Below, one piece after another: positions 16,640-24,299 of a stretch of DNA of 45,244 bases (position 1 is the stretch's first letter; the number at the start of each line of letters is the position of its first letter). The stretch is from a virus (taxonomy: Duplodnaviria > Caudoviricetes), in the IMG/VR virus record IMGVR_UViG_3300023283_000169, positions 1 to 45,244 of that record. One strand, 5' to 3'. The notes beneath the pieces are model-generated. The model searched no databases. It was not told the DNA's origin and saw only the letters and a program-made list of their open reading frames with translations. The position numbers and the translations under genes were made by a program.

Positions 16640-16651
16640 GGGCACGAAAGC

Positions 16652-16829
16652 AAGCCGAAGTTCTAGATATATCCGAAGGTCTTGAGCGAGCCGAACGCGA
16701 CCAGATGCCCAGATCCGCTGAGCGAGCCGAGAGCCCTTGACCTGTATCGCAACGCGCGACATGTTCAGAGAACGGGACATCCCACGAGGGGACGAGCCGA
16801 CGTAGACGAGGTGCCCATAGCGAACGAGC
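16652..16829 (+). ncRNA. Upstream TIGR-like mini-array (units 16652-16687, 16688-16723, 16794-16829; degenerate 70 nt between)
   Basis: Same 5-9-9-9-4 unit as main array, e.g. gagcc gacgtagac gaggtgccc atagcgaac gagc. Confidence 0.8.
16737..16765 (+). promoter_or_regulatory. Promoter/operator upstream of tas gene
   Basis: cccTTGACC-17 nt-CATGTT with TATCGCA-ACG-CGCGACA; same geometry as P1-P4. Confidence 0.6.
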
Positions 16830-16851
16830 GCAACTCAACCGAGGAGGAACG

Positions 16852-17781
16852 ATGACGGAAAACGCGGAAACGACGACGACCACAGCCTCCAGCCATCTGC
16901 GGTGGCTGGCCGACAACTACGAGCAGAACCAGCGCATGAGGATCCAGGCCGGGGAGCGCATCCGGGCCGTGATCCAGGGACGGGACACCGACCGCGTTGA
17001 CGTGGACGAAGACGAGATCGATGTGGACTCGATCCTCAAGATGATCGTCGAGGGCTCGACGAACGGGGCGACAGCCTACGTCCCCGCGTTCCTGACACGA
17101 TCCTACCGCCTCCACCACGGGGAAGAGCGGGCTTCGTACCGCGACATGATCGTCGCGGTGAAAGACCACCCCGCGTGGCCGTGGCTGGAGAAGGTAAAGG
17201 GGATCGGCCCGACGATGGCGTGCAAGATCCTGTCGAGGCTCGACCTCGATCGGGCAGAATACGCGTCGTCGTTCTGGTCGTACTGCGGCCTGGGCACCGT
17301 ACCCGCCAACAAGTACCGCTGCTCCGAGTGCGGAAGGTCGCGGTCGTTCCCCGTCCGGTACAAGGTGACCGGGAAGCACACGACGCCCGAGGGGGCGAAG
17401 TGTCCAGAGACGATGGAGCTGGTGGCGGGCCCGGACGACGGGGTGCGGTGCGCCCAGCCGCGACCGTCGGCGGGGCAGAAGTCGACGTACGACCAGTACG
17501 CGAAGAAGACCATCTACCTGATCGGAACGCAGTTCCTGAAAGCGAAGGGCGCCTACGCGGACTTCTACCATCGCGAGCGCGAGAAGTACGACGAGAGCCG
17601 GCCCGGGTGGGACAAGGGGAGGAAGCACCTCTCCGCGCTCAGGAAGACGGAAAAGCTATTCCTGTCGCACCTGTACGAGGTGTGGTGCGAGGCGACGGGT
17701 CGGGAGCCCGCGAAGCCGTGGATCGAGGAGTTCGGTAGCGAGGGCCACACGATCATCGACCCCTGGGACATGGTGGGGTAG
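16852..17781 (+). CDS. tasA: TIGR-associated (Tas) Nop-domain protein, TasA-like (IS110/Nop RNA-binding fold, no visible RuvC/HNH), with Zn-ribbon insertion
   Basis: Coiled-coil N-terminus; HP.WPWLEKVKGIGP...KILS; SSFWSYCGL; H..ALRK..KLFLSHLY.VW; no DEDD N-terminal domain; directly abuts the 36-nt array. Confidence 0.85.
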   Translation: MTENAETTTTTASSHLRWLADNYEQNQRMRIQAGERIRAVIQGRDTDRVDVDEDEIDVDSILKMIVEGSTNGATAYVPAFLTRSYRLHHGEERASYRDMIVAVKDHPAWPWLEKVKGIGPTMACKILSRLDLDRAEYASSFWSYCGLGTVPANKYRCSECGRSRSFPVRYKVTGKHTTPEGAKCPETMELVAGPDDGVRCAQPRPSAGQKSTYDQYAKKTIYLIGTQFLKAKGAYADFYHREREKYDESRPGWDKGRKHLSALRKTEKLFLSHLYEVWCEATGREPAKPWIEEFGSEGHTIIDPWDMVG

Positions 17782-18862
17782 AGCCAGCGGCGTCGAGATA
17801 ACCGCATCCGGCAAGCGAGCCGTTGTTCAGGAGGCCCCCGATTCGGCAGAGCGAGCTGCAGCCAACGAGGTACCCCGAGGAGCTGAGTGAGCCGACAGTA
17901 CGGATGTAACTGGTGACGAGAAGCAAGCTGATCGGATCAAGGTAACCGTGGAGCGGGAGGGAGCCGTGGCAAGAAAGGTGACCGACACGACCGAGCGAGC
18001 CGCGGCCCAGAAGATACCCGTGTCCGAGAAGCGAGCCGTCGAATGTGACGTACCCGTCAGTGCAGAGTGAGCTGGGGTGGGACCGGTATCCGAGGGACCA
18101 GAGCGAGCCGAGAGAAACGAGACGACCGTCCGAACGAGGTGAGCCGGGATTGATGAAGTGCCCGATCCACCAGAGCGAGCCGCTGCGCCCGAGGTAACCG
18201 GCCCGCGCAAGCGAGTCGCAAGAACCGAGGTATCCGTTGCAGTCGATCGAGCCGAAAATGAGCAGGCGCCCGTACTCGAAAAGCGAGCCGAAGGAACAGA
18301 TGTGTCCGCTAAAAACGATCGAGCCGCGCCAGTGGAGGTATCCGGCTCGCGGAAGCGAGCCGCCGTCAACGACGTGTCCGAGGAGTTCGATCGAACCGTC
18401 CGTCCGGGAGGTGACGGAAAGTGCAGAGTGAGCCGTGAGTCCCGATGTAACCAGGCAAGGCGAGCGAGCCGAGGGCGGCGATATAACCACGCCACTTGAG
18501 CGAGCCGAGGCATGGTGAAGTGCCCAAAGAAGGAGAGCGAGCTGCCGAATGTCAGGTGACCGTCGGAAAAGAGCGAGCCGGACGATCTGAAGTGGCCGAG
18601 ACTTCAGAGCGAGCCGGAAGTTTTGAGGTGACCGAGAGAGCCGATCGAGCCGTTGGCAAAGACATGACCGTTCCAGAGAAGCGAGACGCGCTCCATGAGG
18701 TGACCGGAGTCCCGGATCGAGTCGCACCTGACAACATACCCGTTGATCCTGAACGAGCCGAAGTTCTCAAGATGACCGCAGGGGTCGAGTGAACCGTGAT
18801 GCACGAGGTACCTGTACGAGTCGAGCGATCCGTCACCAGCAAGGCGCCCGAAGCAACCGAGT
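17781..18862 (+). ncRNA. TIGR (tandem interspaced guide RNA) array, 30 units
   Basis: Parsed by hand: 28 units of 36 nt and 2 of 37 nt; consensus GAGCC-[G+N8]-RANRTRNCC-[G+N8]-RAGC; spacer pairs all different. Confidence 0.9.
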
Positions 18863-21339: not shown

Positions 21340-21798
21340 ATGGTGGGAGACGAAAGCGCGGGGAGCGAACGCGAGGGACCCCCCAGGATCTACACGAGCA
21401 GCTTCGGCAACCTGAAAAACCTCCTGCACCTGAACCCGGTAGGCATAGCGCGCGGGATCCCGAAATGGTACCGAGGGAGGAACGATCGACGCCTGGCGCC
21501 CTCGTGGGGAATGCTGAAGATGTCGAAGCGCGATTACGACAGGCTGATGTTCGCCATCCTCGAACAGCTTGCGCCAGAACAGATCGCGGACGATCTTGGG
21601 GACCGCGCCGTGATGCTCTGCTGGGAGCCGCCAGGAATCCGGTGCCACCGGCGACTCGTGGCTGAATGGCTCGAAAGCGCGCTGGACATCGTGGTTCCCG
21701 AGGTCGGGTTCGATCGGGACGAGACGCCTGAATATCAAGCCATGCCGAGGAAGGGAGAGCGCCCCCCTGAACCACCCGACCAGCTGGCCATGCTCTGA
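21340..21798 (+). CDS. DUF488-like protein
   Basis: IYTS.F, GIARG.PKW, LAPSW.ML, LCWE....CHRRLVAEWL. Confidence 0.8.
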   Translation: MVGDESAGSEREGPPRIYTSSFGNLKNLLHLNPVGIARGIPKWYRGRNDRRLAPSWGMLKMSKRDYDRLMFAILEQLAPEQIADDLGDRAVMLCWEPPGIRCHRRLVAEWLESALDIVVPEVGFDRDETPEYQAMPRKGERPPEPPDQLAML

Positions 21799-21806
21799 GA
21801 ACCTGT

Positions 21807-21883
21807 TGCGTGGTGGTGTAACGACAACATACCGAGGCTCTGTGCCGGGAGATTTGCGGTTCGAGTCCGCAGCCACGCAGCCA
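21807..21883 (+). tRNA. Atypical/degenerate tRNA-Gln(CTG)
   Basis: Acceptor TGCGTGG/CCACGCA + G + CCA; D stem GTGT/ACAT; T arm TGCGG-TTCGAGT-CCGCA; loop CT-CTG-TG; anticodon stem is disrupted. Confidence 0.7.
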
Positions 21884-21891
21884 ACATCCTG

Positions 21892-23367
21892 ATGCGACAA
21901 CTCGGAAAACTGTTCCTGGGCGCGACGAGCTCCAGCCACCGCCGGTGGTTGGCGTCGGCCCTCGCTCACCTCCGCAAGTCCGGGAAGGCGAAGTCGGTGG
22001 TCGTGCCGTGCTGCGGTGCGTTCGGGCTCGTCCGGGCCGCCATCGAAGGCGGTGTTCCCGTCGAGAAGGTCCACGCCAGCGACATCGGGCTGTTCTCGTC
22101 CATCATCGGGTTCGTCGCCTCCGGGCGGGACCTCAGCGAGATGCCCTTCGAGCCCCACGAGAAAAGCACGATCGGTGGCCACGAGTTCGAGGTTGCCGAG
22201 ATGTGGTCCGGGGCACCGGACGACCTCGCGAGGGGTGCCCGCCTGATGTGGCTCATGAAGCTCGCCCAGCTAAACCCCCAGATCGAGTACGAGCGCATGG
22301 TGTTCGACGAGATCTTCATGGGCCGGGAGGCGTACCAGAAGCAGGCGAGGGACGAGCTCGAAGAGATCACTGCATCGATCCGGGGCCTACGGTACGAGAT
22401 CGCGGACATGGCCCACGTCTACCGGCGTAAGCACCCCGAGGGTAGCGTGCTGCTCATCAACCCGCCGGCGTTCGCGGGTGGGTACGAGAAGATGTTCCCG
22501 ATCGAGCGGATCGGGCGCTGGTCCGTCGAGTTCCAGGAGTGGACAATGGCCAGCTACCACGACGACTACAGGGACACGAAAGCGAGGCACGGCTTCCCGG
22601 TCTTCTGGCTCCGGCACGGAGATACCGACGGGATCCCGAAGGGGGACGCCGTGTTCGCGAAGGAGTACAGCAAGGGGCGCTACAAGTACTGGCTCTGCAC
22701 GCAACCGGAGACGTTGGACGGGTTCGACGGGAAGTTCCAGATCGACCACAACAGCCGTCAGGACGTGGAGCCGTACCGGAACCTGCCGATCTGGAAAGAA
22801 GACGAGGAGATGGACGCGGAGATGCCGGTCCAGATCGTCAGGGTCGAGGAGCGCCACGCGCTGTACTACCGCGACCTCTGGGCCCACCGGCTCGACAACA
22901 CGAAGGCCGAGATGTACTACCTCATCCTGATCGACGGGAAGGTGTTCGGGACGGTCGGGTTCTACTACGCGACCCTCAGGTTCAACCGGGACAACAAGGC
23001 GTTCGAGGTGTTCGGGTTCTCGGCCCCGTCGAAGCGATACCCGAACAACGGGCGGCTCCTGATGCACCTGATCACGATGACCGCGATGAAAGAGCTGCTC
23101 CTCGGCACGATGGGCAAGAACCGGCTGTTCTACCTCGATGGGATCGCCACCACGTGCCTGTCGAAGTACCGGCACGTCAAGCTGAACAGCGGGCTGCTGG
23201 AAGTGACGCACCGGGAGAAGTAGCCCAACGGCATGTACAAGATTCAGTACGCCTGCGAGTTCCGGGAAGAGACCTTTCAGGAGGCCCTCGCCGCGTATCT
23301 CGACGAGTTCGAGGCGGAAAGGGAGGAGTGGAAAAAGCGGCGGGAAGGAGCCAGGACAGAGCAATGA
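21892..23367 (+). CDS. N6-adenine methyltransferase-like plus C-terminal GNAT-like DNA-modification protein; in-frame TAG at 23221-23223
   Basis: VVVPCCGAFG (motif I-like), ASDI, LLINPPAF (motif IV-like); frame continues 47 codons past the TAG to a TGA that overlaps the next ATG. Confidence 0.7.
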
Positions 23368-24299
23368 CGCATCCGAACCTGAAGAAGAGAGAGCGGATCG
23401 CACCCCTCGGCGAGGGCCTGGAGATCTGGCACGTGCATCACGACTGCCTGCGGGAGCAGGACAAGAACGCTCGGGTGATGCCGACCCGGAAGTTCGACCG
23501 CCTGAGCGACAACATCGGGAAGCGCGGCGCACTGGAACAGCTCCCCTACGTCTACAACCCCTCCCCAGACGACCCGGAGACCGAGTTCCAGATCATCTCC
23601 GGCCACCACCGGATCCGCGCCGCCCGCAAAGCACAGATCGAGATGCTGTGCGTGCTCGTGGAGACGCGCGAGATGTCGCGGGACGAGATCACGGCCAAGC
23701 AGCTCGCCCACAACGCCCTCGTAGGGTTCGACGACCCGCAGGTGCTCGCGGAGATGTTCTTCAGCATCGAGGACATCGAGGCGAGGATCGAGACCGGAAT
23801 CGCCGACGAGGACCTGGAGCTCGGTACGCCCGTCGACATCGGCGAGATGTCGTTCGACCTGGACCACGAGATCGTGAACATCGTCTTCGTGAAGAGGGAC
23901 TACGATCGGTTCGAGGAGGTGCTGGAGCTGCTCGAAGCCGACAGTCACGTCGTGGTCGCAGACTACGAGGACTTCGACGGGTTCAAGCGGATCGCGATCG
24001 ACGTGAGCCAGAGGTTCGACGTGAGGAACATCGCCGCGATCGTCGCCAAGATGGTCCGGATCCTGAACGTCCACTACCTCTCCAGGGCCAAGAAGATCGG
24101 GCACGGGGAAGACGAGTGGGTCGAGATCGAGGCGATCGTGGGCTCGCCCAGGATGCCGGTCGGGCCGGCGGGCATCCTCCAACGCGCAGTCACGCACATG
24201 GTCGAGAACGGTGACGTGCGAGACCGGAACGCATGGCAGGCGCTGGAATATCTCGCCGCCGAGTACCTCGCCAGGGTGGGTGAAAAGGCCGAGGAGTGA
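23364..24299 (+). CDS. ParB/Srx N-terminal domain protein
   Basis: NAR.M...FDRL..NI...G, FQIISGHHRIRAA, QLAHNAL.G.DD. Confidence 0.85.
   Translation: MTHPNLKKRERIAPLGEGLEIWHVHHDCLREQDKNARVMPTRKFDRLSDNIGKRGALEQLPYVYNPSPDDPETEFQIISGHHRIRAARKAQIEMLCVLVETREMSRDEITAKQLAHNALVGFDDPQVLAEMFFSIEDIEARIETGIADEDLELGTPVDIGEMSFDLDHEIVNIVFVKRDYDRFEEVLELLEADSHVVVADYEDFDGFKRIAIDVSQRFDVRNIAAIVAKMVRILNVHYLSRAKKIGHGEDEWVEIEAIVGSPRMPVGPAGILQRAVTHMVENGDVRDRNAWQALEYLAAEYLARVGEKAEE

What the first reader, a model, noticed from the sequence alone, without database searches (positions are those of the whole stretch)
17290..17460. Tas protein lacks a visible nuclease and carries a Zn-ribbon insertion in the Nop domain
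Seen: no N-terminal DEDD/RuvC motifs and no HNH motif. Directly after YCGL, where IS110 recombinases have the catalytic-Ser loop, there is a ~45-aa insert with C-x2-C-x15-H-x7-C (CSECGRSRSFPVRYKVTGKHTTPEGAKC). Inference: a binding-only TasA variant acting as an RNA-guided repressor or a recruiter of a separate effector, with the Zn ribbon as an extra DNA or protein contact. Possible partners in trans include the DEDDh exonuclease, RusA, and the MTase/ParB proteins.
Basis: partly seen in the sequence, partly recalled or inferred. Interest (0 to 1): 0.75.

Follow-up and report, generated by a model that had tools for sequence, protein, structure and literature searches.

The report
Phage TasA with zinc-binding wedge
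This phage gene encodes a nuclease-free member (TasA) of the known TIGR-Tas RNA-guided DNA-binding family, next to a 30-unit guide array; it carries an extra, predicted zinc-binding module that marks one branch of the family, and it likely silences genes by binding DNA rather than cutting it.

Summary
Observation confirmed. ORF 16852-17781 (309 aa) is a Tas protein with no RuvC or HNH domain, in a 45-kb tailed phage, followed by a 30-unit dual-repeat TIGR array. About 48 extra residues with C157-x2-C160-x15-H176-x7-C184 sit in the wedge loop; the four ligands are invariant in 82 of 82 aligned relatives. Lack of a nuclease is the definition of TasA, and repression by TasA is already reported, so that half is known. 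The insert is absent from five studied Tas proteins. It is present in sequences catalogued by Faure 2025, but is not mentioned in the texts I searched. It marks one clade, is lost repeatedly within it, and unrelated Cys-rich inserts recur at the same site elsewhere. The scan already noted a TasA with a zinc-ribbon wedge on another genome (e1-5911350). The proposed partners (exonuclease, RusA, ParB-like) have no linkage support. New here: chromosomal relatives, mostly in Gemmatimonadota, keep the module, lack the guide-processing His and a long array, and often carry one conserved guide unit, sometimes closed by a stem. No target was found. Verdict: new variant of a known kind.

The parts
16852..17781 (+). 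tasA gene, 309 aa: coiled coil plus Nop domain, no nuclease domain
   Evidence: 9MTY TasR E 6e-13; phrog_4285 E 1e-36; top 10 Foldseek hits all TasH/TasR
17296..17460 (+). extended wedge loop, residues 149-203, predicted beta-ribbon with CCHC ligands C157, C160, H176, C184
17515..17541 (+). Y222...K230, by spacing the aromatic-basic pair of the DNA-unwinding junction (SpTasH W203/K211); mapped by hand
17608..17655 (+). W253, R257, R264, K268: by spacing the box C contact helix (PlTasA W295, H299, R306, K310); mapped by hand
17719..17748 (+). C-terminal loop W290...H299, likely the guide-processing aromatic/His pair (SpTasH Y289/H296; TaTasR also has Trp)
17778..18859 (+). dual-repeat TIGR array, 30 units (28 of 36 nt, 2 of 37 nt); both repeats begin AG (box D) and end CCG (box C); 9-nt spacers, or 8-nt if the purine-biased last base belongs to the repeat
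16649..16830 (+). short upstream array: 2 intact units followed by degenerate ones

Best explanation
This is a phage TIGR-TasA system: a nuclease-free Tas protein that likely dimerises, likely cuts 36-nt guides from the adjacent array, and is predicted to open and hold an ~18-bp DNA target without cleaving it, so that it would block transcription or replication of a competing element or host gene. The CCHC insert is a predicted zinc-stiffened beta-ribbon at the tip of the wedge loop, the loop that separates the two DNA strands; being basic, it most likely adds contact to the displaced strand or flanking duplex and so lengthens dwell time in place of the missing nuclease domain. Shown here: gene, array, ligand conservation, fold, absence of a nuclease domain. 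Taken from other Tas proteins: dimer, processing, target geometry, repression. Inferred: zinc binding and the DNA-contact role.
For: Fold and sequence match TasH/TasR. Array has edge/loop repeats with shared boxes at a 36-nt period, as described in PMC12045711. Junction pair, box C helix and tail His are present. TasA repression and DNA binding are reported. The wedge separates the strands in TasR, and insertions in dead RuvC domains extend binding to flanking DNA. The insert has 9 K/R against 6 D/E, mean net charge +3 over 54 sequences, and conserves only the ligands and P/V/G residues, no catalytic set. Model confidence is high across the insert (block pLDDT 91-98). Its best, weak fold matches are zinc fingers of MCM (Z up to 3.7). 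Only 2 relatives of 542-2000 aa were found, neither with a nuclease of the RuvC/HNH Tas type; both carry LAGLIDADG, one with a Hint domain.
Against: No target found for any of 32 guides: best self-match 3 mismatches of 18; one 17/18 match in 2.3 Mb of fetched loci is near chance (3 of 992 re-paired controls). Repression was shown for a different TasA, not a CCHC one. 11 of 65 representatives inside the clade lack the module, so it is dispensable in some. In SpTasH the wedge helps dock the nuclease, which favours a protein-docking role. Model coordinates could not be inspected, so ligand geometry and position relative to DNA are unchecked.
Confidence: 0.55

Rival explanations
1. The module is a docking surface for another protein, such as host RNA polymerase or a nuclease supplied in trans, making the system an RNA-guided recruiter or activator.
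For: The wedge and beta-hairpin dock HNH in SpTasH. Clade members carry an N-terminal RNA-polymerase alpha-CTD-like domain (P0057). RbpA, an RNA-polymerase-binding protein, recurs among weak fold hits. The module is kept in chromosomal forms beside LytTR regulators.
Against: No shared neighbour in phage loci. RbpA hits are below significance (TM 0.29-0.41; Z 2.2) and weaker than MCM zinc fingers. Surface positions of the insert vary widely.
Confidence: 0.2
2. The insert is a tolerated, self-folding passenger at an insertion-prone loop tip; the ligands are conserved only because the loop must fold.
For: 13 of 68 representatives outside the clade carry unrelated Cys-rich inserts at the same place and 13 carry long Cys-free ones; 9 short-wedge and 2 Cys-free members sit at several places inside the clade. 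FpTasA has a Cys-free wedge extension.
Against: Kept in 54 of 65 clade representatives that are under 50% identical to each other, with near-constant spacing; the losses fall mainly among divergent members.
Confidence: 0.2
3. The insert is a cryptic nuclease or strand-transfer module at the place of the IS110 catalytic loop.
For: Position in the wedge; one invariant His.
Against: The only invariant polar residues in the insert are three Cys and one His, which complete a metal site; no conserved Ser, Asp, Glu or Asn; no nuclease among fold or profile hits.
Confidence: 0.04

Closest known systems
FpTasA, dual-repeat TasA of Flavonifractor plautii (Faure et al. 2025, PMC12045711)
   Same: Solo Nop-domain protein, dual-repeat array with 36-nt period, tail with aromatic residue and His.
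   Different: FpTasA's wedge extension has no Cys; here a CCHC module, box C mostly CCG, 30 units.
MbTasA, BlTasA and PlTasA (10.64898/2026.09.09.750476; 10.64898/2026.08.11.744272)
   Same: No nuclease; DNA binding and, for MbTasA, repression shown; conserved junction pair.
   Different: PlTasA and BlTasA use stem-loop guides; PlTasA has short wedge hairpins and no CCHC. MbTasA and BlTasA sequences not seen.
TaTasR (PDB 9MTY) and SpTasH (9W04)
   Same: Best sequence and fold matches; same coiled-coil/Nop core and similar edge repeat.
   Different: They have N-terminal RuvC or HNH nucleases and 21-23-aa wedges.
IS110 bridge recombinases (IS621, ISCro4)
   Same: Homologous Tnp/Nop domain (Foldseek E 3e-3 to 6e-3).
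   Different: No DEDD domain, no conserved serine, and a TIGR array in place of a bridge RNA.

Membership tests
TIGR-TasA (dual-repeat) | Coiled coil plus Nop domain of the Tas family | tested here: met
TIGR-TasA (dual-repeat) | No N-terminal RuvC or HNH domain | tested here: met
   helix from residue 8
TIGR-TasA (dual-repeat) | Adjacent array of alternating edge and loop repeats with shared box C/D, 8-9-nt spacers, 36-nt period | tested here: met
TIGR-TasA (dual-repeat) | C-terminal Y/H processing pair | tested here: inconclusive
   H299 present; Trp290 replaces Tyr, as in TaTasR, and spacing is 9 rather than 7
TIGR-TasA (dual-repeat) | Array processed to 36-nt tigRNAs bound by the protein | not testable with these tools
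   needs RNA data or bench work
TIGR-TasA (dual-repeat) | Guide-directed DNA binding without cleavage | not testable with these tools
   no target found; needs EMSA and cleavage assay
TasR / TasH nucleases | N-terminal RuvC or HNH domain | tested here: not met
IS110 recombinase | DEDD domain and conserved Tnp serine (PMC11208160) | tested here: not met
Named zinc-finger or zinc-ribbon family (for the insert) | Significant profile or fold match | tested here: inconclusive
   Pfam best E 0.008, none at cut-off; PDB profile hits cover the CxxC part only; Foldseek none at E<=0.001; VIA best Z 3.7

The most novel reading that the evidence does not exclude
The CCHC-wedge clade is a lineage of natural RNA-guided transcription factors that moves between phages and host chromosomes. 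Phage members, like this one, keep a long reprogrammable array; chromosomal members in Gemmatimonadota have shrunk it to one fixed guide, in one branch independently converted into a stem-loop guide while dropping the processing His, and sit in two-component/TonB-receptor clusters to regulate a conserved target, with the zinc wedge as the contact to DNA or RNA polymerase. This would be host domestication of TIGR-Tas and a caught-in-the-act route from dual-repeat to stem-loop (snoRNA-like) guides.
Probability: 0.25. Interest if true: 0.8.

Novelty: new variant of a known kind. Interest (0 to 1): 0.45.

Why it matters
The function of natural TasA proteins and their real targets are open questions in both source papers. 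A dual-repeat TasA clade with a folded metal-binding wedge departs from the statement that dual-repeat Tas proteins keep a compact core with minimal variation, and gives a natural insertion site for engineering a compact RNA-guided binder. More useful still, the chromosomal relatives with a single conserved guide turn 'what do TasA guides target?' into a one-guide, one-genome question.

Tried and rejected
Self-targets in the window under six geometries: none better than 3 of 18 or 2 of 16 mismatches. Window guides against all fetched loci: one 17/18 match inside a RimK/GCS2-like gene 3.6 kb from a host tas-like gene (L042); about 0.1 expected from 3 of 992 re-pairings, so only a lead. Targets of the single chromosomal guides: none in their own loci (best 5 mismatches); none with either spacer exact in G004 (44 and 15 sites; best 3 mismatches in the other half); none with spacer B exact in G001 (10 sites); both genomes are fragmented assemblies. 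Partners by linkage: none. AlgR-like box upstream of chromosomal genes: 11 of 60 non-array loci (one a script artefact) against 0 of 13, about 4.5 expected, often within hairpins; not convincing. RbpA likeness: below significance. Promoter/terminator scan: chance level. Sequencing runs: no RNA holder listed. Cultured phages: 86 records match, none over 80% of the query, best 22-28% identity among the 40 listed. Single-protein scan of viral contigs: nothing. The period-36 test missed arrays in six loci (L003, L072, L078-L081) that reading later showed. The Cys counts are circular (loci chosen on the motif) and are not used. No complex prediction was run: no candidate partner emerged. Whether the guides have targets in the public viral or metagenome collections remains untested.

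Full report
Setting. The window is a whole virus record of 45,244 bases with direct terminal repeats and encodes terminase, portal, capsid, tail and tape-measure proteins. The finding lies in ORF 16852-17781(+), 309 aa, within the replication and early-gene region. Thirty repeat units follow its stop codon (17778-18859; 28 of 36 nt, 2 of 37 nt), and a short degenerate set precedes it. Each unit is edge repeat, spacer, loop repeat, spacer, both repeats beginning AG and ending CCG, which is the dual-repeat TIGR layout of PMC12045711.

Observation. The wedge is 71 aa against mostly 23 aa in short-wedge relatives. A homolog search gave 275 proteins, 120 listed; by eye all 120 show the motif, and the four ligands are invariant in 82 of 82 that I aligned. 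The model (pLDDT 92.9) starts its coiled coil at residue 8 and builds the insert as beta-strands. The top ten Foldseek hits are TasH and TasR chains, then IS110 recombinases; by sequence 9MTY matches at E 6e-13 with a gap exactly across the insert. There is no nuclease domain, and a search for longer relatives found 2 among 2,121 candidates, with LAGLIDADG domains (one also Hint), read as inteins; the tool calls such a blank weak evidence.

What is known. TasA is by definition the solo Nop protein and the commonest effector; its role was suggested to be blocking transcription or replication. A 2026 preprint shows MbTasA binds DNA and represses. The loop is the 'wedge' that separates target strands; in SpTasH it helps dock HNH. 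None of FpTasA, PlTasA, TaTasR, ParTasR or SpTasH has the CCHC module. The clade is nevertheless in the 2025 data: Table S1 rows of nodes 5186, 15165, 34696 and 788 carry it, and Data S1 holds members with the insert trimmed out. 'Zinc' occurs 0 times in the main texts of the five TIGR papers searched and 0 times in the four readable supplements of PMC12045711; library searches listed no paper on it. The preprint does measure wedge insertions per clade in figures I could not see, and says dual-repeat proteins vary little.

Distribution. Among the best 150 cluster representatives plus the query, 61 of 151 match the CCHC pattern, 55 are short, 29 long without it, 6 partial. In a tree of the core without the wedge (133 rows kept, 18 dropped for gaps), one clade (support 0.998) holds 54 CCHC, 9 short and 2 long Cys-free rows, with the losses scattered; of the 68 rows outside, 13 carry other Cys-rich inserts (3 were mislabelled CCHC by the loose pattern) and 13 long Cys-free ones. 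So the module is a clade marker at an insertion-prone site. It matches no named family: Pfam below cut-off, profile hits to CxxC only, weak fold hits led by MCM zinc fingers.

Mechanism. Residues mapped by hand from the papers' numbering are present: Y222/K230 at the unwinding junction, W253/R257/R264/K268 on the box C helix, W290/H299 in the tail. The insert conserves ligands and turn residues only and is basic on average. I therefore read it as a zinc-stiffened extension that likely adds DNA contact for a binding-only repressor (0.55); docking of a partner (0.2), tolerated passenger (0.2) and cryptic nuclease (0.04) are the rivals. No target was established.

Relatives in chromosomes. Of 24 genome loci, 17 are titled Gemmatimonadota; in a phylum sample 4 of 251 genomes match, one being the centre genome, so occurrence is patchy. 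A period-36 test split 84 distinct loci into 17 with arrays, 44 without and 23 uninformative; six 'without' proved to have arrays on reading. The tail His is in 16 of 17 array loci and 6 of 47 loci called array-less, and the tails printed show it in those six corrected loci. Of 41 non-array loci with 3 kb or more of flank, 17 hold a LytTR regulator, 13 a TonB-dependent receptor and 26 at least one of these or a LytS-type kinase, against 0 of 5 array loci; six of these loci supplied the queries and many are close kin. A generic box C/D pattern scores 132 hits beside array loci (4.7 in shuffles) and 35 beside the others (12.8). It finds a unit downstream in 17 of 58 non-array loci; one of these is an array duplicate (L067) and one is doubtful (L048). 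L064, L070 and L074 share identical spacers at 67-70% protein identity; a second group shares near-identical spacers at 65-89% and encloses its unit in a 14-pair stem, 98.6% paired, with changes on both sides at 2 pairs (relatedness inflates such tests). Stem-loop systems are reported to lack the Y/H loop and to lie outside the dual-repeat clade, so this looks like an independent conversion. One large Gemmatimonadaceae-type branch shows no unit at all. An outgroup-rooted tree supports the clade (96.8) and nests the array-bearing members among the chromosomal ones (83.6), so direction is unresolved. L040 comes from G005, an unpublished genome; it is one row in A2, the trees and the single-unit count, and no conclusion depends on it.

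Earlier scan notes. e1-5911350 reports a TasA with a zinc-ribbon wedge on another genome and calls such modules common add-ons; my tree agrees for the site but shows this CCHC type is one clade. e1-6230025 and e1-6254336 describe the alpha-CTD fusions, which I also saw.

What I read. PMC12045711: sections 4, 6, 8, 9, passages, Table S1 part 1 and search hits (file cut when stored), Data S1 passages; its supplementary PDF was too large and may show the insert. 10.64898/2026.09.09.750476: abstract, Results parts 1-2 of 3, Discussion, one Methods section, extended legends, passages; supplements closed. 10.64898/2026.08.11.744272: sections 5 and 9, passages. 10.64898/2026.07.30.739400, PMC13421893, PMC11208160, PMC4064291: passages only. 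The paper that first defined the Y/H pair was not seen.

Verdict. Real feature; member of dual-repeat TasA on every sequence feature tested; new variant through the CCHC wedge. Interest 0.45, carried largely by the single-guide chromosomal relatives.

Noticed in passing
L064:1412-1443, L070:1734-1765, L074:3167-3198: A single guide unit right after the stop codon with identical spacers in three loci whose proteins are 67-70% identical; in L070 and L074 a hairpin follows.
   Followed up: partly
L046:6800-6890 and L088, L091-L093, L109, L113, L126-L130, L134, L050: One guide unit enclosed in a long stem, beside Tas proteins that lack the processing His: an apparent dual-repeat to stem-loop conversion.
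   Followed up: partly
L036, L037, L039, L043, L045, L047, L049: Array-less tas-like genes in Gemmatimonadota contigs lie beside LytTR response regulators, LytS-type kinases, S41 peptidases or TonB-dependent receptors.
   Followed up: partly
L037:2477 and L039:6872: Near-identical spacer pairs in two different Gemmatimonadota genomes, one just upstream of the gene and one 3.5 kb downstream.
   Followed up: no
L043, L047, L094-L125 branch: A large Gemmatimonadaceae-type branch keeps the CCHC module and RNA-contact residues but shows no guide unit nearby.
   Followed up: partly
P0127, P0267: CCHC-clade TasA proteins of 680 and 809 aa with LAGLIDADG (and, in P0127, Hint) domains, likely inteins.
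   Followed up: partly
L001-L003 (P0057, P0066, P0106): Phage members of the clade with an N-terminal RNA-polymerase alpha-CTD-like domain (Pfam hit in P0057 and P0066; P0106 similar by eye).
   Followed up: partly
window 17922-17957 and L042:10501-10518: One window guide matches 17 of 18 bases inside a RimK/GCS2-like gene 3.6 kb from a host tas-like gene; near chance level.
   Followed up: partly
window 17778-18859: The last base of both spacers is nearly always a purine (G 18 and 20 of 27), so repeats may be 10 nt and spacers 8 nt as in SpTIGR. Box C ends in G here and in most clade arrays, alongside Arg257 where other Tas proteins have His.
   Followed up: partly
P0188, P0198, P0199, P0205, P0215, P0218, P0230, P0234, P0247, P0250, P0262, P0266: Unrelated Cys-rich inserts at the same wedge tip in other Tas lineages.
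   Followed up: partly
L072, L078, L079, L080, L081: Arrays whose loop repeats differ from the rest of the clade and that the period test missed.
   Followed up: no
window 21340-24299: Three-gene block before the terminase (phrog_2450, phrog_7858, and phrog_7405 with weak ParB/methyltransferase hits), possibly a DNA-modification module; not linked to tas in relatives.
   Followed up: no
Mycobacterium cluster phages such as Bethlehem (H6-H40): 79 mycobacteriophage records hold a distant, short-wedge Tas-like gene annotated as transposase or hypothetical.
   Followed up: no
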